The position numbers and the translations under genes were made by a program. A stretch of DNA of 64,000 nt from Dictyostelium discoideum (lineage: Eukaryota), in NCBI GenBank assembly GCA_000004695.1, contig CM000150.2, positions 1,312,001-1,376,000 on the forward strand, read 5' to 3'. Shown here in pieces: positions 8,084 to 64,000 of the stretch. Every line of letters begins with the position of its first letter. Within the stretch, counting starts at the first letter, position 1. Under the pieces are notes generated by a model. The model searched no databases and was not told where the DNA came from. It saw only the letters and a program-made list of their open reading frames with translations.

Positions 8084-10172
<2,089 letters not shown>

Positions 10173-55610: not shown

Positions 55611-56004
55611 TTTTTAAAAAACTTTAAAAAATATAAAGACATACATTAATTTCAGGATTATTAATTAAACCTAAATAATTTGATCTTGCAAGATTTAAAT
55701 ATTTTTTATTATTAATTGTTACATGAGTACCTTCAGATTCTTGAATGATTAATTCAGTTTGATTTAAAACTTCTAATGGATTAGATTTTGGTGTTAATGG
55801 AATTGGTGACCATTCACGAATTAATTCATCCTCTTCTGCTTTAGTTAATGTATCATTTTGTCTTGGTTTAAATGGTCTCTTTGTAAGAAGATATATTATA
55901 AATACTGCCATCAATCCATGGATGAAAAGATTTGGACTTGTACTTGTAACTATAAATTCTTTTGTATAATATAAAATATTATTATAAATATCGAATAAAA
56001 ACAT
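54267..56004 (-). CDS. sptA: Serine palmitoyltransferase subunit 1 (LCB1/SPTLC1; class-II aminotransferase/AONS family), ~479 aa; exons 55645..56004, 55329..55534, 54908..55223 and 54267..54824
   Basis: Exon 1 is MFLFDIYNN...[19 protein letters not shown]...[24 protein letters not shown], with donor GTATGT. Exon 2 is [68 protein letters not shown] plus GT, with donor GTATGT. Exon 3 is (V)[11 protein letters not shown]...[13 protein letters not shown]...[55 protein letters not shown], with donor GTAAGA. Exon 4 is [47 protein letters not shown]...*. It is colinear with human SPTLC1, including a K-to-N change at the PLP-lysine position ([13 protein letters not shown]) that is typical of LCB1. 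Confidence 0.9.
55569..55608. repeat. (TG)n dinucleotide repeat, ~19 units, inside sptA intron 1
   Basis: 'gtgtgagtgtgtgtgtgtgtgtgtgtgtgtgtgtgtgtgtat'. Confidence 0.95.
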
Positions 56005-56295
56005 TTTTTTTAATTTTTATTTTATTTTTTTTTAAATTTTTATTTATTTTTTTTTTTTTTTTTTATAGATTTGTTTATTTTTCGTTTATCGGGTGATTAG
56101 TGTTGATTAAATTATTATTATTATTAAATTATTATATTTTTTATTTTATTTTTATAGTAGTACAAGATATACCCAATAAACAAAAAACAAAATAAAACAA
56201 AACAAAATTTAATAAAATAAAATGCAACACAATAATATCCAAATAGAGTAAATTTTAAAAAAAAAAAAATACAATGAATGATTAAATATATTTTG

Positions 56296-56342
<47 letters not shown>

Positions 56343-56537
56343 AAATAAAATAAAATAAAAAAAAAATAAAATTTAAAAAAAAAAACAAAAAAAAAAAGAG
56401 TGTCGCGACAGTTTTTTTTGTTGCTTAGAGTGATTGGTTAGAATGGCGGTAAAAGAAAAAAAAAAAAAAAAAAAAAAAATAAAAACTAATAAAAATAAAA
56501 AGAAAAAATATAACATATAACTTAAGATTTTTTTCTT

Positions 56538-56575
<38 letters not shown>

Positions 56576-56762
56576 TTTTTTTTATAAATATATTTAATTT
56601 TATTTTTATTTTTGATGATTAATAAAGATTTTTTTTTATTATTTTATTTTATTTTATTTAAACTCTTTTTTTTTTTTTTTTTTTTTTTTTTGGATTTTTT
56701 TTTTTAGATTTTTTTTTTTTTTTGATTTGTTTTTTTTTTTTTAAAAAAAAAAAAAAAACAAC

Positions 56763-57065
56763 TTATTGAGATTGTTGACCAGTTTCACAATTATTGAAAA
56801 TTATAGAAACTAATGATTGAATTCTATTTGTTGAGTGAACCATAATTCTTAAAATATTCATCATTGATTGATTTCTTCTAATTAAATTTTTAACTTCCTT
56901 TTCAAATGAAAGATTTCCTAAGATTTTAACTGCTAATAATAATAATTCATATGATGGATTATTATAATTTACAATTACAATCTTTGTTAATAATTCAACT
57001 AAATCTTGTTGGGCTAATTGTGGTAAAAGTTTTTCTATAAAAAAAAAAAAATTTTAAGTTAGTAT

Positions 57066-57106
<41 letters not shown>

Positions 57107-58695
57107 AATTAATAATAATAATTACTATTTGTTGATAAAAGTGATAAAGTTATAGCAGCATTAATTGCAATTTGAATACAATGATCATTTTTATCAGTTA
57201 TAATATTTTTTAAAGGATTAATACCACCAACTTTAATGATTGCAATTTGATTTTCAATATTTTCAGCCAAGAATGATAAAGTGGCAGTAGTATGAAGTAG
57301 TACTTTTTCAGAGGAAGAATTTAACATTAAAACCAATGGTGGTAAAGCACCACATTCCACTACTTTTCTTTGATACTTTTGGTGAAATGCCAATATCGAT
57401 AATGCTTGTGAAGAAGTCTCTTGCAAGAAAACATCATCTTGCAATGCGATAGCAATGAATGATTGCAAACCACCACCTTGTACAACTTGGTCACGTGATA
57501 GCGGATTCTTTGTTAAATTTAATAATACTATGGAACTGGAATTCTTGATTTGTATATTATAACTTCTAGACATCTTTATTAAAATTGGTAAACATTTATC
57601 TGCCAATTCTGTCTTTACTACAATATTCTCTTCACAACTTAAATATTGAAAACATATACAAACATTTAAAAAACTTTCAAAATCTTCGTCATGAATAATT
57701 AATTGTTGATCATTATATTCTTCTTCTTCCTCCCCTTCTCTCTCTTCTTTTTCTCCTCTTCCACTTTTTCCTCCTCTATTTTTATTATTATTATTATTTA
57801 CATTTTTATTATTAAAATTATTATTACTATCTCTACTTTTATTTTCAAAATTATTTTGATCAACATTTGATGAACTATTATTATTATATTGATTTTTAAA
57901 ACTATCTAATAAATAATTTACTAATAAATTTAAAAAATTTGCTTCAAGTATATCAATTCTTGAAATATCTATATATATATGTATATTATTTTTAGTTTGT
58001 ATGATTAATAAAAAAATTAAAATTTTTTTTTAAAATTTTTTTTTTATTTTTAATTTACACATACCACATTCAGATAAATTTGCAATTGCTCTTGTTAAAT
58101 GTTTATATACAATAGAGTTGCCATTATAGAATAAAGATGATAATGGTGTTAAGAAACCTCTAATGATCATCTTTCTTGCTAATGAGTCAGTACTTAAATT
58201 ACAGAATCCTTTTGCAGCTTCAATTTTATTTTTAATTTCATTTGATTGTGCAAGTTTTGAATAAGTTGTTAAATCTGAACATCTATTACAAATTCTAACT
58301 GGTTTATTATAGTGTAATTGTGGTAATGATTGTCTTTTACTTGTACAATTATTACAAAATAAATTACCACAACCTCTACAATGATGTCTTCTTAATAGTG
58401 TATTAAATTGTGATTGACAATTTAAACAACATTCTTCTTGATGATCAGGTACCCATATTGGTCTCCATATCTTTTGAAGATTGTTATCTGTATTATTATT
58501 TAAATTATTATTATTATTATTATTATTATTTAAATTGTTATTATTGTTGTTGTTGTTTTTATTGTTGGTATTATTTACAGTTGAAGGGGATGATGATGAA
58601 GATGATGATGATAATGATAATGAAGAAGAGGAAGAATAAGAATGTGATGATCCTAATACTGCTCCCGTAGTTCCTGTAGTTGATGATGTTGACAT
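56763..58695 (-). CDS. FYVE zinc-finger + armadillo-repeat protein, ~581 aa; exons 58065..58695, 57126..57968 and 56763..57034
   Basis: Exon 1 has a poly-S/poly-N N-terminus and a FYVE finger: WVPDHQEECCLNCQSQFNTLLRRHHCRGCGNLFCNNCTSKRQSLP...VRICNRCSDL; ...LSEC plus G, donor GTATGT (58064). Acceptor tatAG (57970-57969). Exon 2 is (D)ISRIDILEANFLN...acidic/N-rich linker...ADKCLPILIKMSRSYNIQIKNSSSIVLLNLTKNPLSRDQVVQGGGLQSFIAIALQDD...ARM-like repeats...LSLLSTN plus A, with donor GTAATT (57125). Acceptor tatAG (57036-57035). Exon 3 is (K)KLLPQLAQQDLVELLTKIVIVNYNNPSYELLLLAVKILGNLSFEKEVKNLIRRNQSMMNILRIMVHS...*. Confidence 0.72.
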
Positions 58696-58712
58696 TTAAT
58701 TCCTATTTTTTA

Positions 58713-58758
<46 letters not shown>

Positions 58759-59349
58759 ATATTGTCGCAAGTGTCAAATTTTAATTTTTATTATTTATTT
58801 GTTTGATTGAGGTGTGTGAGTGTGAGTGTGGGTGTGGTTGGGATGGAATCCAAAAAATTTAATTTTTTTTTTTTTTTTATTTTTTATTTTTTGAAATTTT
58901 GATTGTGTTGTGGTAGTGTTTTATTTTTATTTTTTTATTTTTTATTTTATTTTTTATTTTTAAAAATTTTATTTTTAACTTTTTTTTTATAATTATTATT
59001 ATTATTATTATTATTATTACTGCTATTAATTTATTTTTGGTATTGTTTGGAAAAAAAAAAAAAAGAGAAATCAAAACGTGAAAATATATATAAAAAATTT
59101 AAATTGGCAAATAAAACAAAAGAAACTTTAAGTAACTGTATATGACAGTATGGAAAATAGAAAATTTGATTCTTTTGAATTTTTTTTGAATTTTTTTTTT
59201 TTTATTTTGTTTTATTTTATTTTTTTATTTTAATTTTTTTTTATTTTTTTTTAAAAAAAAAAAAAAAAAAAAAAATCAAATAAAAAAAAAAATTAAAAAA
59301 AAAAAGATTTATCTGCAAAGATGAGGGTTTCTATAAAATTTTTCAAATT

Positions 59350-59384
<35 letters not shown>

Positions 59385-59492
59385 ATAATTCTATTTATAA
59401 AATTTAAATTAGATTTCTTTAAAGAATGTCCGATTATTTTTCTTTTTTATTTTTTTTTAATTTTTTTTTTTTTATTTTTTTATTTTTTTTTT

Positions 59493-60547
59493 TCAGTCAA
59501 ATAAATAAAATGGTGTTCCAAAAAAAGTGATAGGAGAGCAAGTACGAATATTTGCATTTAATGAATTAATTTTTTCAATATCATCATTTGATAATTGGAA
59601 GTCAAAAATATTGAAATTTTCAATGATACGAGAATGATTTCCAGATTTTGGAATAGCTGCAATACCTCTTTGATTTAACCATTTAAAAATAACATTTGCA
59701 ACTGATTTTTTATATTTACCAGCTATTGATTTTAGGATTTTATTACTAAAAAAATCACATTTACCTTGGCCTAATGGACTATATGCAACTAATTTAATTT
59801 CATATTTATCACAATATTCTTGTAATTTAAATTGAGTTAAGTATGGATGAATTTCAACTTGATTTACAACTGGTTTAATTTTTGCATATGTTAAAAGATC
59901 AACTAAATTTTGAACATTAAAATTTGAAACACCAATAGATTTTACTAAACCAAGTTCAACTAGTTTTTCCATTTCTTGCCAAGTTTCACGAATTGATACT
60001 GGTGCAATTATTGGATTGCCATTTTGATCTCTTAATGGTTCAATTGTCAATCCTAATGGATTTGAATTTTCAAACGCAATTGGCCAATGAATTAAATATA
60101 AATCTAAATAACCAATTCCTAAATCCTCAATTGTCTTTACACAATGTTTAACAACCAAGTTTGAATTATGACATGAATTCCAAAGTTTACTTGTATAAAA
60201 TATATCTTCTCTTTTAATTTCACCCTCTTTAAAGATCTCTTTTAAAGAATTTCCAATCACTTTTTCATTACCATAAAATGCAGCACCATCAATATGTCTA
60301 TATCCTTTTTTTTTATTATTATTTTTTTTTTTTTAAATATAATTAATTATTTTTTAATTATTCCTAAGATTGGAATAAAATTTTAAAAATTACCATTTTT
60401 TAAAGCATTGTTAATAGCATCCCCAACTTCACCAGGATTTTCACTATAATATGTCCCAAGACCAATTGATGGTATTTGATTTCCATCATTTAATTTAAAA
60501 TTATTATTATTATAATTGGTATTATTATTATAATTATTTTGAAACAT
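59493..60547 (-). CDS. Aldo-keto reductase (AKR1 aldose/aldehyde reductase-like), ~321 aa; exons 60394..60547 and 59493..60304
   Basis: Exon 1 is MFQNNYNNNTNYNNNNFKLNDGNQIPSIGLGTYYSENPGEVGDAINNALKN plus G, with donor GTAATT (60393). Acceptor aaaaAG (60306-60305). Exon 2 is (G)YRHIDGAAFYGNEKVIGNSLKEIFKEGEIKREDIFYTSKLWNSCHNSNLVVKHC...LDLYLIHWPIAFEN...ETWQEMEKLVELGLVKSIGVSNFNVQNL...VNQVEIHPYLTQFKLQEYCDKYEIKLVAYSPLGQGK...IPKSGNHSRIIENFNIFDFQLSNDDIEKINSL...*. Canonical AKR catalytic tetrad context is present (D...Y...K...H). Confidence 0.88.
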
Positions 60548-60889
60548 TTTAATTAATTATAATAAATTATAAGAAAAAAAAAAAAGAATTTATTAAAGAA
60601 ACAAATTTATTTTTTTTTTTAATATTTAAATTTTAGTTTAAACATATTACATATTTTATGTCCTTTTATAAAAATTAAAAATAATTATCACCAAATTATA
60701 ACTTTCAGATATAAAAAAAATTAAAAAAGTAAATTACAAGAAAATTGTGTTTAACACGAGCATAGAATTAATTTTTTTTTTTTTTTTCCAAAATAAAATT
60801 TTTTTTAAAAATTAATTTTAATTAATTATTGAATTTATTAATAGATAGAATATAATAAAAAAAATACTTTTAGTACATGAACCACAATA

Positions 60890-61380
60890 CTGATGGATTT
60901 GAATTTTCAAATGCAATTGGCCAATGAATTAAATATAAATCTAAATAACTAATTCCTAAATCCTCAATTGTCTTTTTACAATGTTTAATAACTAATTTGA
61001 ATTATAACATGAATTCCAAAGTTTACTTGTATTCTCTTTTAATTTCACCCTCTTCAAAAATTTCTTTTAATGAAATTCCAATCACTTTTTCATTACGATA
61101 AATTGCAGCACCATCAATATGTATATATCCTTTTTTTTTTTTTTTTTTTTTTTAAAAATTTATAAAAAAAAAATTATTTTTTTAAAAATTCTTAAGATTG
61201 GCGGTAAAAAATTTTAAAATTACTATTTATGAACATTTTGTGATTAAAAAGAATAAAAAACAGTTAAATTAAAATTTTTTTTTTTTTTTTTTGTGCGGAA
61301 ATTTCCAATTCCTAAATGTTTAATTGTATTTTGACAATGTATAATAACTAATTATGGCATGTTGTTGAACATTATCACCA
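60890..61380 (-). pseudogene. Truncated, decayed duplicate fragments of the adjacent aldo-keto reductase gene (5' part of exon 2 + intron + 3' end of exon 1, then a further, shorter and more degenerate piece at ~61300-61375)
   Basis: 60898-61140 aligns with 60050-60300 of the intact gene ('ggatttgaattttcaaa[t/c]gcaattggccaatgaattaaatataaatctaaataac...') with substitutions and an ~11-nt deletion. 61140-61260 matches the intron ('...ttcttaagattggcggtaaaaaattttaaaattac' versus '...ttcctaagattggaataaaattttaaaaattacc'). No open frame. Confidence 0.8.
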
Positions 61381-61980
61381 TAATTTATTATATAGTTTAA
61401 AATTTTATAAAATAATTAAAATAGCGGCCTAAAATAAAAATAATTAAATTATAATATTAATGAATGTAAATTATATGAATAATGATTCTTATTTAATTTT
61501 TTTTTTTTTTTATATTTAGTTTCCGAAGCGACTGAGAAAATTATAAAATTTTGACACATAATTTATTATCGTATGAGGGTGAGAACGAATCTAATTATAG
61601 TACTTTGATAATACATAATTATGTTGATACAAATCTAATTGTAGTATTTTGATAATATATATTTATATTGAAAAGGTATGTATTCCAAAGCTTTTTAACA
61701 AAACTGCAACAACGCTATATTTATATATATCTTCTATCTTAATTTTGTCCTTTTCGAAACTAATAAAAAAAGAAATCTGTTTAATTGTTTTTATTTTTAA
61801 AAATAAAAAAAAGAAATAAGGGTTAATAATAATAATAATAATATTAAAAAAAAAAAAAATTTGAATTTTTAAATTGAAAACAATTTCCTTTTTTCTTTTT
61901 TTCTTATATAAATGGACTTTTATATTTATTTTTAATTTTATTTATTTATTTATTTTTTATAATTTTTTTTTAATCAAATA

Positions 61981-62741
61981 ATGGAATATTCCAAAAACTA
62001 AATGGGCAATAAGCACGAAAATTTGAATTTAATGAATTAATTTTTTCAATATCATCATTTGATAATTGGAATTCAAAAATATTAAAATTTTAAATTATAT
62101 GAGAATGATTTGCAGATTTTGGAATAGCTGCAATACCTCTTTGATTTAACCATTTAAAAATAACATTTGCAACTGATTTTTTATATTTATCAGCTATTGA
62201 TTTTAGGATTTCATTATTAAAAAAATCACATTTACCTCTACTTAATGGACTATATGCAGCTAATTTAATTTCATATTTATCACAATATTCTTGTAATTTT
62301 AGTTAAGTTAAGTATGGATGAATTTCAACTTGATTTACAAATGGTTTAGTTTTTGCATATGTTAAAATTTGAAACACCAATTGATTTTACTAAACCAAGT
62401 TCAACTAATTTTTCCATTTCTTGCCAAGTTTCACGAATTGATATTGGTGCAATTTTTTGATAACCATTTTCATCTTTTATCCAATCAATTGTAACATCTG
62501 ATGGATTTGCATTTTTAAATGCAATTGGCCAATGAATTAAATATAAATCTAAATAACCAATTCCTAAATCCTCAATTGTCTTTTCACAATGTTTAATAAC
62601 TAAATTTGAATTATGACATGAATTCCATACTTGTATAAAATATATCTTCTCTTTTAATTTCACACTCTTCAAAAATTTCTTTTAATGAATTTCCAATAAC
62701 TTTTTCATTCCTATAAAATGCAGCACCATCAATATGTCTAT

Positions 62742-62758
<17 letters not shown>
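61981..62758 (-). pseudogene. Second, longer degenerate copy of the aldo-keto reductase gene (covers most of exon 2), disrupted by internal deletions and frameshifts
   Basis: Colinear with 59505-60300 of the intact gene. The ORF-track fragment 62346..62672 is 108 aa (MKSVKLKEKIYFIQVWNSCHNSNLVIKHCEKTIEDLGIGYLDLYLIHWPIAFKNANP...ETWQEMEKLVELGLVKSIGVSNFNICKN). Deletions relative to the intact copy include loss of '...gatcaactaaattttgaacatt...' near 62360 and loss of ~15 nt near 62640; a stop follows ...GVSNFN. Confidence 0.8.
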
Positions 62759-62781
<23 letters not shown>

Positions 62782-63258
62782 AATAAAATTTAATAATATC
62801 TCCTCTTTTGAACTAATATCATTTTATTTATAGTTAATGATTATATAAATTAAAAAATTAACATAGAAGATCAAAAATTAATTATTAAAATATTTAAGGA
62901 AATTAATTTTTGAAAATATTAAAAAAAGATAAAAAAATAAAATAAAAAAAGAAAAAAAAAATAAAATAAAATTAAAAAAATAATTAATTCATTGCCAATA
63001 CAAAATATTTTTTTTTGTTTTTTAATTTTTTTTATCAAATCAAATTATTAAATTTTCATTCACTTTTTTTTTTTATTTTTTTTTTTTTTTATTTTTTTAA
63101 TTTTTTTTTTTTTATTTTTTAAAATTACAAATAAAAACAACACATACATCACCACAGCACTCACAAAAAATAGAAAGAAATAAATAAATAAATAAAATAA
63201 AATAAAACAATAATAATAATAATAAAAATTATTAAATAATAGTAATAATAAAATAATT

Positions 63259-64000
63259 ATGTCAATTTTTGCGTATAGCATATTGGCTGGATTAGCACCA
63301 TTATTATCATCATCAATTCCTTTTTTCACATTAAGGAATAGAAATATAAATGCATCAGTGTTTCATATACTGTTGTGTATATCAGCAGGTTTATTATTTG
63401 CAGTTGCTTCACTAGAGCTAATACCAGAATCTATGAATTTAGCACTTAGATCATTTGAAGAATCAACAAAAACACAAACATCACTTAAATCAACTACAAC
63501 AAAAACAACAACAACAACAACAACAATTGGTAATATAAAACTTCAAAAGAGTTTTATAAGTAATAGTGAAGATAGTTTAAATGAATTTCATAGTTTAGAC
63601 AATGAAATTAATAAACCTCCAATTGAAGGTTTAAATTTAAATAATTTAAATCAAGCAACAAACTTGGATAATAATGAAGAAGATAATGATAATTTAGATA
63701 ATGATGGTGAAAATGAGATTGAAAATGATCATGACCATGATCACCAAGAAGATGAAGGTGGTGATAATGATCATGATCATGAAAGTGAAGAAAAGAAAGA
63801 ATTTTTAAAAATTCCAATGTATGGTATTGGGTTTGGTTTTGCAATTTTAATTATAGTAGAATCAATATTTAGTTCAATTGATGGTGGTGGTGGTGGTGGT
63901 GGTCATCATTCTCATAGTCATGGTTCATTATCATCCTCTTCATCAAATGATGTAATTAGTGATTATATTAGTAATAATAATAGTAATAATATTAATAATA
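63259..64000 (+). CDS. ZIP-family (Zrt/Irt-like) metal-ion transporter, N-terminal ~247 aa; 3' end lies outside the window
   Basis: ATG at 63259. MSIFAYSILAGLAPLLSSSIPFF...VFHILLCISAGLLFAVASLELIPES, followed by a His/Asp-rich cytosolic loop (ENDHDHDHQEDEGGDNDHDHESEEKK) and a second His cluster (GGGGGGGHHSHSHG). The frame stays open to the window end. It is not in the ORF track because there is no stop codon within the window. Confidence 0.7.
   Translation, partial: MSIFAYSILAGLAPLLSSSIPFFTLRNRNINASVFHILLCISAGLLFAVASLELIPESMNLALRSFEESTKTQTSLKSTTTKTTTTTTTIGNIKLQKSFISNSEDSLNEFHSLDNEINKPPIEGLNLNNLNQATNLDNNEEDNDNLDNDGENEIENDHDHDHQEDEGGDNDHDHESEEKKEFLKIPMYGIGFGFAILIIVESIFSSIDGGGGGGGHHSHSHGSLSSSSSNDVISDYISNNNSNNINN

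What the first reader, a model, noticed from the sequence alone, without database searches (positions are those of the whole stretch)
59493..62758. Tandem array: one intact aldo-keto reductase gene followed by two or three progressively decayed duplicates
Directly downstream of the intact two-exon AKR gene (59493-60547) and in the same orientation lie three decayed pieces. The first is a ~250-nt fragment reproducing the exon 2 start, the intron and the exon 1 end (60898-61260). The second is a ~75-nt more diverged scrap (61300-61375). The third is a ~780-nt copy of most of exon 2 (61981-62758) carrying deletions and a premature stop. Identity to the parent is high but clearly not 100% (scattered substitutions and indels), so these are real decayed paralogues rather than assembly duplication. 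This is a snapshot of birth-and-death evolution in the AKR (alr) family and a candidate site of unequal crossing-over.
Basis: seen in the sequence. Interest (0 to 1): 0.55.

Follow-up and report, generated by a model that had tools for sequence, protein, structure and literature searches.

The report
Dead aldo-keto reductase copies beside survivor
One working aldo-keto reductase gene in Dictyostelium discoideum sits next to three broken remnants of older neighbouring copies that are still intact in related amoeba genomes, which is an ordinary, well-understood case of gene-family turnover.

Summary
A two-exon aldo-keto reductase (AKR) gene lies on the minus strand (exon 1 60394-60547, intron 60305-60393, exon 2 59493-60304; 321 aa, catalytic tetrad intact). 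Three AKR-derived pieces follow in the same orientation:
- 60885-61237: 92% identical to the intact gene, keeps the intron.
- 61299-61351: a 53-nt scrap.
- 61917-62774: 92% identical, no exon 1, deletions of 5, 26 and 2 bp, and two in-frame TAA codons.

An independent assembly (GCA_054883475.1) shows the same arrangement, so this is not an assembly artefact.

Two corrections. The pieces lie upstream of the gene, not downstream. They are also not decayed copies of the surviving gene. Six syntenic Dictyostelium loci point to an older array between a ZIP transporter gene and a FYVE gene. I call its members z, y, a, b and c. The survivor is c. The large pseudogene is z and carries the other, ancestral C-terminal type. 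The scrap is y. The intron-bearing fragment is most likely b. Copy a is deleted. Other genomes keep a, b or c intact and have killed different members.

This is ordinary birth-and-death of a tandem family, made of unprocessed pseudogenes. Interest is low.

The parts
59493..60304 (-). Exon 2 of the intact AKR gene (array member 'c'), including the TGA stop codon.
   Evidence: The spliced CDS translates without interruption to 321 aa. Pfam PF00248 scores 171.7 bits. It is 0/92 different from the c orthologues over its 3' end.
60305..60393 (-). Intron of the intact gene (GT..AG, 89 nt, A-rich).
   Evidence: The position is conserved in all syntenic copies.
60394..60547 (-). Exon 1 of the intact gene (ATG at 60545-60547), with an Asn-rich N-terminus.
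60548..60884 (-). Upstream or promoter region of the intact gene. It is collinear with the b-c intergenic region of other genomes.
   Evidence: Window 60886-59300 aligns as one block to L001 12725-14265 and to L002 9695-11205.
60885..61237 (-). Fragment 1, the remnant of array member 'b'. Exon 2 positions 1-257 lie at 60885-61129, the intron homologue at 61130-61223, and about 14 nt of the exon 1 end at 61224-61237. It carries 11-bp and 1-bp deletions. Its 3' two-thirds were lost in a deletion of about 0.68 kb, with the junction at 60885/60886.
   Evidence: Its best match is the b copies: 89% to L001 11697-12052, with p-distance 4.1% to b against 6.9% to the survivor.
61299..61351 (-). Fragment 2, a scrap of a further dead member ('y'). 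It corresponds to exon 2 positions 147-199 and possibly extends with weak similarity to about 61375.
   Evidence: (z=8-17) and D13. It sits in the same slot, between shared flanks, as a different AKR scrap in L001 at 9168-9303.
61376..61916 (-). Spacer: the 3' flank of fragment 3. It is unique sequence and not AKR-derived.
   Evidence: Blocks are collinear with L001 8746-9160. It has no repeat elsewhere in the window and no significant AKR similarity.
61917..62774 (-). Fragment 3, an unprocessed pseudogene of the ZIP-proximal member 'z'. The exon 2 homologue is 61970-62744, with about 53 nt of 3'UTR-like sequence and the intron's 3' poly(A) tract. It has no exon 1, deletions of 5, 26 and 2 bp, two in-frame TAA codons, and its own terminal stop at 61970-61972.
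62775..63258. Intergenic region shared with the divergently oriented ZIP transporter gene. It contains no exon 1 remnant.
   Evidence: It is collinear with L001 7919-8430 and L002 6860-7436. tblastn finds no exon 1 there.
63259..64000 (+). 5' part of the flanking ZIP-family transporter gene, which serves as the synteny anchor.
   Evidence: Pfam PF02535 gives a partial match with E=3.4e-6. A ZIP gene flanks the AKR array in L001, L002, L004, L006 and L007.

Best explanation
The region is the remains of a tandem array of aldo-keto reductase genes in the D. discoideum laboratory-strain lineage. The array lies between a ZIP transporter gene and a FYVE-domain gene.

The array arose by DNA-level tandem duplication. 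The copies keep the intron and genomic flanks, so they are not retrocopies. Before this lineage split from the other discoideum-clade genomes, the array already held at least five members. I call them z, y, a, b and c, in order from the ZIP side.

In this genome only c still encodes an enzyme:
- Member z (fragment 3) lost exon 1 and picked up three frameshifting deletions and two nonsense codons.
- Member y is reduced to a 53-nt scrap (fragment 2).
- Member a was deleted outright, together with exon 1 of b.
- Member b (fragment 1) also lost its 3' two-thirds in a deletion of about 0.68 kb.

Sister genomes kept other members and killed different ones. The mechanism is therefore redundancy after duplication, followed by neutral decay through point mutations and deletions, with unequal exchange or gene conversion shuffling segments between copies.

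Shown: the homology, the disabling lesions, the synteny and the copy-state differences between genomes. Inferred: the exact order of deletions, the assignment of fragment 1 to b rather than a, and the non-functionality of the remnants.
For: Homology and lesions:
- The intron is retained in fragment 1.
- Fragment 3 starts at the intron's 3' poly(A)/exon 2 boundary, and its 3' flank is genomic and shared with other genomes. This argues against retroposition.

Independent assembly:
- L007 shows the same structure.

Syntenic loci and copy states (exon 2 reading frames):

| Locus | Organism | State |
|---|---|---|
| L001 | D. discoideum | z and y remnants; a and c open; b with one in-frame TAA |
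| L002 | D. discoideum | 5'-truncated a; b and c open |
| L003 | D. cf. discoideum | single copy with a stop codon and a 1-bp deletion |
| L004 | D. citrinum | two copies, one with a stop codon |
| L005 | D. dimigraforme | two open copies |
| L006 | D. firmibasis | one open copy |

Orthology:
- The survivor groups with the c copies at 88% bootstrap and is 0/92 different from them over the 3' end.
- Fragment 3 groups with the a/b clade at 79% and has the a/b-type C-terminus.
- The fragment 3 flank is 85% identical (z=26) to the ZIP-proximal remnant of L001, and the spacer blocks are collinear.
- Fragment 1 is closest to the b copies. It is joined directly to the b-c intergenic region.

Relaxed constraint:
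- Substitutions unique to fragment 3 are 3 synonymous, 11 non-synonymous and 2 stops, at codon positions 8/6/2. The survivor has 8 synonymous and 7 non-synonymous, at codon positions 4/4/7.

Survivor is a functional-looking enzyme:
- It is a full AKR with the D57/Y62/K91/H124 tetrad aligned to human aldose reductase.
Against: - Bootstrap support for the paralogue groupings is only moderate (57-88%), because the copies are mosaics.
- Over whole exon 2, fragment 3 is about equally distant (8-10%) from all discoideum-clade copies. Its assignment to z rests on flanks and on the 3' end.
- Fragment 1 is assigned to b rather than a on 10 versus 15 differences in 245 nt, plus the intron match. A hybrid a/b origin by unequal crossing-over is not excluded.
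- The counts for relaxed constraint are small.
- No expression data were available, so transcription of the remnants is untested.
Confidence: 0.85

Rival explanations
1. The intact gene is the parent. It was duplicated locally two or three times in this lineage, and the copies have since decayed in place.
For: The fragments are about 92% identical to the intact gene. In exon 2 positions 481-720, fragment 3 is closest to the window's own gene (14/240 differences). The two share states at a few sites that the c orthologues lack, and at positions 603 and 648 no other copy carries that state.
Against: - Over the 3' end, fragment 3 differs from the survivor at 24/90 sites, while the survivor is 0/92 from the c orthologues.
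- The two have different C-terminal types, and both types are older than the species.
- Flank collinearity links fragment 3 with the ZIP-proximal copies of other genomes.
- Fragment 1 is nearer to the b orthologues than to the survivor.
- dS between fragment 3 and the survivor (0.175) is no smaller than the orthologue dS (0.14-0.15).
- The locally shared tract is better explained by gene conversion.
Confidence: 0.07
2. Fragment 3 is a live gene with an unusual exon structure, as modelled by the automated annotation of GCA_054883475.1. That model is the 181-aa protein P0099.
For: A gene model exists. A 108-aa ORF within it still matches PF00248 (54 bits).
Against: - The model needs an invented 6-codon first exon about 370 nt upstream, plus extra introns that skip each frameshift.
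- The product lacks residues 1-55, the catalytic Lys segment (TSKLW), the GVSNFN...HPYLTQ segment and the last 40 residues of a 321-aa TIM-barrel enzyme.
- There are two in-frame TAA codons and three frameshifts.
- The substitution pattern is relaxed.
Confidence: 0.03
3. The copies are an assembly artefact: collapsed or duplicated reads, or mis-joined paralogues.
For: The sequence is AT-rich and repeat-prone. The 3 substitutions between the two assemblies within 59300-63300 all fall inside AKR copies.
Against: - The copies are only about 92% identical, with distinct indels.
- An independent assembly reproduces every junction.
- The remnants have orthologous counterparts in other genomes.
Confidence: 0.01
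4. The fragments are processed pseudogenes (retrocopies) or were scattered by a transposable element.
For: A 38-nt A-run in gene orientation abuts fragment 3, and an A18 run abuts fragment 2.
Against: - The A-run of fragment 3 is at its 5' end and corresponds to the A-rich 3' end of the intron.
- Fragment 1 keeps the intron.
- The 3' flanks are genomic and syntenic.
- No tRNA gene, no Rfam family and no repeated element occur in the spacers.
Confidence: 0.01

Closest known systems
Unprocessed (duplicated) pseudogenes in tandem gene arrays, under the birth-and-death model of multigene family evolution (Nei and Rooney; recalled from general knowledge)
   Same: The copies are tandem and in the same orientation, and they retain the intron and genomic flanks. 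They carry frameshifts, nonsense codons and truncations. Different members are lost in different lineages, and there are signs of gene conversion between members.
   Different: Nothing essential differs. The only notable point is how many independent inactivations are visible at one small locus across closely related genomes.
Dictyostelium tgr gene families, with many adjacent partial duplicates and pseudogenes (PMC12745789)
   Same: This is the same organism group. Functional genes are flanked by truncated or partial paralogues. [quoted passage not shown] Recombination between copies is proposed there.
   Different: The tgr loci are hypervariable recognition genes under diversifying selection. 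The AKR array shows no such signal. Its survivors evolve under purifying selection (dN/dS 0.2-0.35).
Aldo-keto reductase superfamily, AKR1-like aldose/aldehyde reductases. The D. discoideum alr genes alrA, alrB, alrC and alrE are named in PMC2474670.
   Same: The intact gene matches PF00248 end to end. It aligns to human aldose reductase at E=3e-72 with the catalytic Asp/Tyr/Lys/His conserved.
   Different: It has an Asn-rich N-terminal extension typical of Dictyostelium. I could not establish which named alr gene this is. The substrate is unknown.

Membership tests
Aldo-keto reductase superfamily (intact gene 59493-60547) | Full-length match to the Aldo_ket_red domain (PF00248) above the curated cut-off. 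| tested here: met
   171.7 bits against a cut-off of 24. Residues 28-301 cover profile positions 2-290 of 291.
Aldo-keto reductase superfamily (intact gene 59493-60547) | Catalytic tetrad Asp-Tyr-Lys-His (AKR1B1 D43/Y48/K77/H110). | tested here: met
   D57, Y62, K91 and H124 align to the tetrad positions of human aldose reductase 2agt_A. The numbering of the human residues is from general knowledge.
Aldo-keto reductase superfamily (intact gene 59493-60547) | NADPH-dependent carbonyl reductase activity. | not testable with these tools
   No biochemical data were available.
Aldo-keto reductase superfamily (fragment 3 as a functional member) | An uninterrupted frame encoding the complete (alpha/beta)8 barrel with the tetrad. 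| tested here: not met
   No exon 1, three frameshifting deletions and two in-frame TAA codons. The 5-bp deletion lies at the catalytic Lys codon region. Three frames are needed to cover it.
Unprocessed (duplication-derived) pseudogene | Homology to a functional paralogue that includes non-coding parts (intron, UTR or flank). | tested here: met
   Fragment 1 keeps the intron homologue. Fragment 3 keeps the 3'UTR-like sequence and the intron's 3' end.
Unprocessed (duplication-derived) pseudogene | Disabling mutations or truncation. | tested here: met
   One search gives the indels and stops. Searches give the truncation junctions.
Unprocessed (duplication-derived) pseudogene | Relaxed selective constraint on the dead lineage. 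| tested here: inconclusive
   The direction is as expected: 11 non-synonymous, 2 stops and 3 synonymous, at codon positions 8/6/2. However, there are only 16 lineage-specific changes.
Unprocessed (duplication-derived) pseudogene | No functional transcript or protein. | not testable with these tools
   No RNA-seq or proteome data were available here.
Birth-and-death tandem array | Copy number and functional state differ between related genomes at the syntenic locus. | tested here: met
   There are 0 to 2 open copies in these six loci, plus different remnants, between the same flanking genes.
Birth-and-death tandem array | Dead members have orthologues that are intact elsewhere. | tested here: met
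   The b copy is open in L002, while b is fragment 1 here. The a copy is open in L001 and is deleted here. For z, no intact orthologue was found; it is truncated in L001 too.
Processed pseudogene (retrocopy) | Intron loss, a 3' poly(A) tail and a dispersed location. | tested here: not met
   The intron is retained in fragment 1. The A-tract of fragment 3 is at its 5' end and is intron-derived. The location is tandem and syntenic.

The most novel reading that the evidence does not exclude
The dead copies may not be inert. They could serve as donors (or recipients) in ectopic gene conversion with the surviving AKR gene, acting as a small reservoir of sequence variation. This would be analogous to what has been proposed for tgr fragments in Dictyostelium.

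The hint is a tract at exon 2 positions 587-662 where the survivor and fragment 3 are identical at 14 consecutive polymorphic sites (p=0.0075, uncorrected for 28 pairs). At positions 603 and 648 the two window copies share a state that no other copy carries. In addition, two adjacent substitutions in fragment 3 distinguish the two lab-strain assemblies, and in the other assembly they match the survivor's codon.
Probability: 0.15. Interest if true: 0.35.

Novelty: new member of a known kind. Interest (0 to 1): 0.22.

Why it matters
It matters mainly for annotation. The three pieces should be labelled as pseudogene remnants. An automated annotation of a sister assembly has already turned the largest one into a 181-aa 'protein' (P0099), and it patched premature stops in other genomes' copies with invented introns.

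As biology, it is a compact and well-resolved example of how a small metabolic gene family turns over. Across closely related social-amoeba genomes, different array members have been inactivated independently. It opens no new question, and the mechanism is textbook.

Tried and rejected
- **Exact-protein look-up of the spliced 321-aa product.** The window's own genome appears to be absent from the protein search: the best hit was 89%.
- **A fourth AKR scrap at 61725-61759.** The repeat finder suggested it (D18). It was rejected because no segment of the spacer 61380-61916 reaches z>4.5 against any AKR gene on either strand with dinucleotide shuffles.
- **A transposon, tRNA or ncRNA explanation for the spacers.** There are no tRNA genes in the window, no Rfam family in 56000-64000, and no repeat of the spacer elsewhere in the window.
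- **An exon 1 remnant upstream of fragment 3.** None was found.
- **Naming the gene (alrA, B, C or E).** The literature confirms that these names exist, but no sequence or ID mapping could be made.
- **Mapping GCA accessions to strain names.** The source paper's main text does not give the mapping.
- **Whole-exon NJ tree as the sole arbiter of orthology.** Its resolution is limited by mosaicism, so flanks and the diagnostic 3' end were used instead.
- **Gene conversion between the survivor and fragment 3.** It is suggestive only and would not survive multiple-test correction.
Full report
**1. What is in the sequence**

The region is very AT-rich Dictyostelium DNA.

The intact gene lies on the minus strand:
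- Exon 1 is 60394-60547, a GT..AG intron of 89 nt is 60305-60393, and exon 2 is 59493-60304.
- Spliced, it gives a 966-nt CDS and a 321-aa protein.
- It matches Pfam Aldo_ket_red end to end at 171.7 bits.
- It aligns to human aldose reductase at E about 3e-72, with the catalytic Asp/Tyr/Lys/His positions occupied by D57, Y62, K91 and H124.

Three further AKR-derived stretches lie at higher plus-strand coordinates, in the same orientation. They are therefore upstream of the gene, not downstream.

| Piece | Window | Aligns to | Identity | Lesions |
|---|---|---|---|---|
| Fragment 1 | 60885-61237 | 60048-60409 of the intact gene | 91.8% without gaps | 11-bp and 1-bp deletions; keeps the intron homologue and about 14 nt of the exon 1 end |
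| Fragment 2 | core 61299-61351 | exon 2 positions 147-199 | 42/53 to the survivor, 47/53 to a c copy elsewhere (z=8-17) | scrap only |
| Fragment 3 | 61917-62774 | 59442-60334 of the intact gene | 92.1% without gaps | no exon 1; deletions of 5, 26 and 2 bp; two in-frame TAA codons; needs three frames in tblastn |

The repeat finder recovers the same families independently. No other AKR sequence is in the window.

**2. Not an artefact**

- A protein search found a 181-aa model (P0099) in another D. discoideum assembly.
- Its locus, L007 (GCA_054883475.1), is 99.3% identical to window 64000-52022.
- Within 59300-63300 it differs only by one homopolymer length and three substitutions.
- An independent assembly therefore reproduces every fragment and junction.
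- This also places the window in the D. discoideum laboratory-strain lineage. That placement is an inference from the near-identity. The new assemblies appear to be those of PMC12745789, but I could not map accessions to strains.

**3. Comparative anatomy**

The look-up of encoding contigs returned the syntenic locus from six other genomes. In each, the AKR copies sit between a ZIP transporter gene and a 580-650-aa gene. In L007 this second gene has a FYVE domain. Reading exon 2 of every copy in frame gives these states:

| Locus | Organism and assembly | State of AKR copies |
|---|---|---|
| L001 | D. discoideum, GCA_054859355.1 | two remnants, then three full-length copies: a and c open, b with one in-frame TAA |
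| L002 | D. discoideum, GCA_054859385.1 | 5'-truncated a, then b and c open |
| L003 | D. cf. discoideum | single copy with a stop codon and a 1-bp deletion; upstream synteny broken |
| L004 | D. citrinum | two copies, one with a stop codon |
| L005 | D. dimigraforme | two open copies |
| L006 | D. firmibasis | one open copy |

The window differs from L001 and L002 by about 13% in the flanks and by dS about 0.15 in the c gene. These are diverged lineages, which makes them useful as outgroups.

**4. Who is who**

The survivor is member c:
- It is closest to L001_c and L002_c (6.4-6.9%) and groups with them at 88% bootstrap.
- It is identical to them over the last 92 nt, whereas the a and b copies differ there at 24-28 sites.

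Fragment 1 is most likely member b:
- It is closest to the b copies (4.1%, against 6.9% to the survivor). Its intron-containing stretch matches b at 89%, c at 86% and a at 85%.
- Its 3' end is joined directly at 60885/60886 to sequence collinear with the b-c intergenic region. This implies a deletion of about 0.68 kb covering the rest of b.

Fragment 3 is member z, not a copy of the survivor:
- It differs from c copies at 24/90 of the last sites, but from b copies at only 7-9/90.
- In its own frame it ends NSNFRAYCPFSFWNIPLFD*, whereas the survivor ends RTCSPITFFGTPFYLFD*.
- The D. citrinum pair and the D. dimigraforme pair each have both C-terminal types, and the single D. firmibasis gene has the WNIPLFD type.
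- The two types therefore predate these species, and fragment 3 belongs to the ancestral type.
- Its 3' flank (61912-61757) matches the flank of the ZIP-proximal remnant of L001 best (122/144, z=26). It matches the a flanks next (118/156, z=10), and other flanks not significantly.
- The spacer blocks that follow are collinear with L001 8922-9160.

Fragment 2 is member y:
- Fragment 2 and a different AKR scrap in L001 (9168-9303, exon 2 positions 337 to about 500) occupy the same slot between shared left and right flanks.
- They look like two differently whittled leftovers of one more dead member.

The simplest array is therefore ZIP | z | y | a | b | c | FYVE. In this genome z is fragment 3, y is fragment 2, a is deleted together with exon 1 of b, b is fragment 1, and c is alive.

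**5. Mechanism**

- The copies keep the intron and genomic flanks, and the poly(A) next to fragment 3 is the A-rich 3' end of the intron. They therefore arose by DNA-level tandem duplication, not retroposition.
- After duplication, redundancy allowed neutral decay.
  - Lineage-specific changes in fragment 3 are 3 synonymous, 11 non-synonymous and 2 stops, at codon positions 8/6/2.
  - The survivor shows 8 synonymous and 7 non-synonymous, at codon positions 4/4/7. The numbers are small.
  - Orthologous live copies show dN/dS of 0.18-0.35.
- The copies are mosaics. Sliding-window distances switch partners along exon 2, and several pairs share runs of concordant polymorphic sites longer than permutation allows. 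Gene conversion or unequal exchange has evidently acted in the array.
- This also explains why within-species pairs cluster in D. citrinum and D. dimigraforme despite their distinct 3' ends.
- For the survivor and fragment 3, the signal is only suggestive: positions 587-662, p=0.0075 uncorrected.

**6. Rivals**

- **A live, oddly spliced gene at fragment 3.** It would lack the N-terminal 55 residues, the catalytic Lys segment, a central 40-residue segment and the C-terminus. The P0099 model needs an invented 6-codon exon about 370 nt upstream.
- **Assembly artefact and retrocopy/TE origins.** Both are excluded as described in sections 2 and 5. In addition there is no tRNA gene, no Rfam family and no repeat of the spacer.

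**7. Comparison with what is known, and verdict**

This is a standard set of unprocessed pseudogenes in a tandem gene family evolving by birth-and-death. Dictyostelium genomes are known to carry many partial duplicates and pseudogenes next to functional genes; for example, AX4 has 26 tgr pseudogenes (PMC12745789). D. discoideum AKR genes alrA, alrB, alrC and alrE are named in the literature (PMC2474670), but I could not determine which one this is.

The curated reference annotation may well already list these remnants, which I could not check.

The comparative picture is tidy but unsurprising: different members were killed independently in almost every genome examined, and automated annotations patched the lesions with invented introns. 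Interest is low. The kind is known and the instance is ordinary.

Noticed in passing
L007 10001-11051 (equivalent to window about 63150-62095): The automated annotation of GCA_054883475.1 calls a 181-aa 'Aldo_ket_red' protein (P0099) over the fragment 3 pseudogene. It uses a 6-codon first exon (MCCFYL) about 370 nt upstream and extra introns that skip the frameshifts. This is probably a pseudogene mis-called as a gene.
   Followed up: partly
L001 11572-12602; L003 10001-11019; L004 11693-12593: Three annotated AKR 'genes' in other genomes have lesions in exon 2. L001_b has an in-frame TAA (GQG*CAFF). The only copy in D. cf. discoideum (L003) has a stop codon plus a 1-bp deletion. D. citrinum copy b has a stop codon (GNPS*II). 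Their shortened protein models (297, 274 and 267 aa) skip the lesions.
   Followed up: partly
window 62710-62712 and 60519, compared with L007: All 3 substitutions between the window and the sister assembly within 59300-63300 lie inside AKR copies (the whole 12-kb alignment has 10 mismatches). The adjacent pair in fragment 3 (AGG here, GGT there) makes the other assembly match the intact gene's codon. This could be a micro-conversion, or it could be polishing cross-talk between paralogues.
   Followed up: no
L003 1-9436: In D. cf. discoideum the ZIP/Tim17/sulfate-transporter side of the synteny block is replaced upstream of the AKR copy. In its place are a FNIP-repeat gene and a DDE_Tnp_4 transposase-like gene. 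A piece of the ZIP-side intergenic region (window 63300-62955) matches L003 467-797. This is a rearrangement breakpoint at the array.
   Followed up: no
L005 7904-9758: In D. dimigraforme an iron-containing alcohol dehydrogenase gene (Fe-ADH), on the opposite strand, lies between the two AKR copies. This is absent from the other loci.
   Followed up: no
window 61660-61760: A block of about 100 nt in the spacer is absent from the otherwise collinear L001 sequence. Next to it lies a pair of imperfect direct repeats of about 40 nt (about 61565-61660, 'aatctaatt(a/g)tagta(c/t)tttgataata'). The origin is unknown and there is no AKR similarity.
   Followed up: partly
window 58030-58695 (-): A 221-aa ORF has a FYVE-like Cys-rich motif and long Ser/Asn runs. 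It is probably an exon of the 581-aa FYVE-domain gene that flanks the array in L007.
   Followed up: no
window 62745-62782: There is an uninterrupted run of 38 T on the plus strand at the 5' border of fragment 3. Its length differs by 5 nt between the two lab-strain assemblies. Homopolymer tracts bound several of the deletion junctions in this array.
   Followed up: partly
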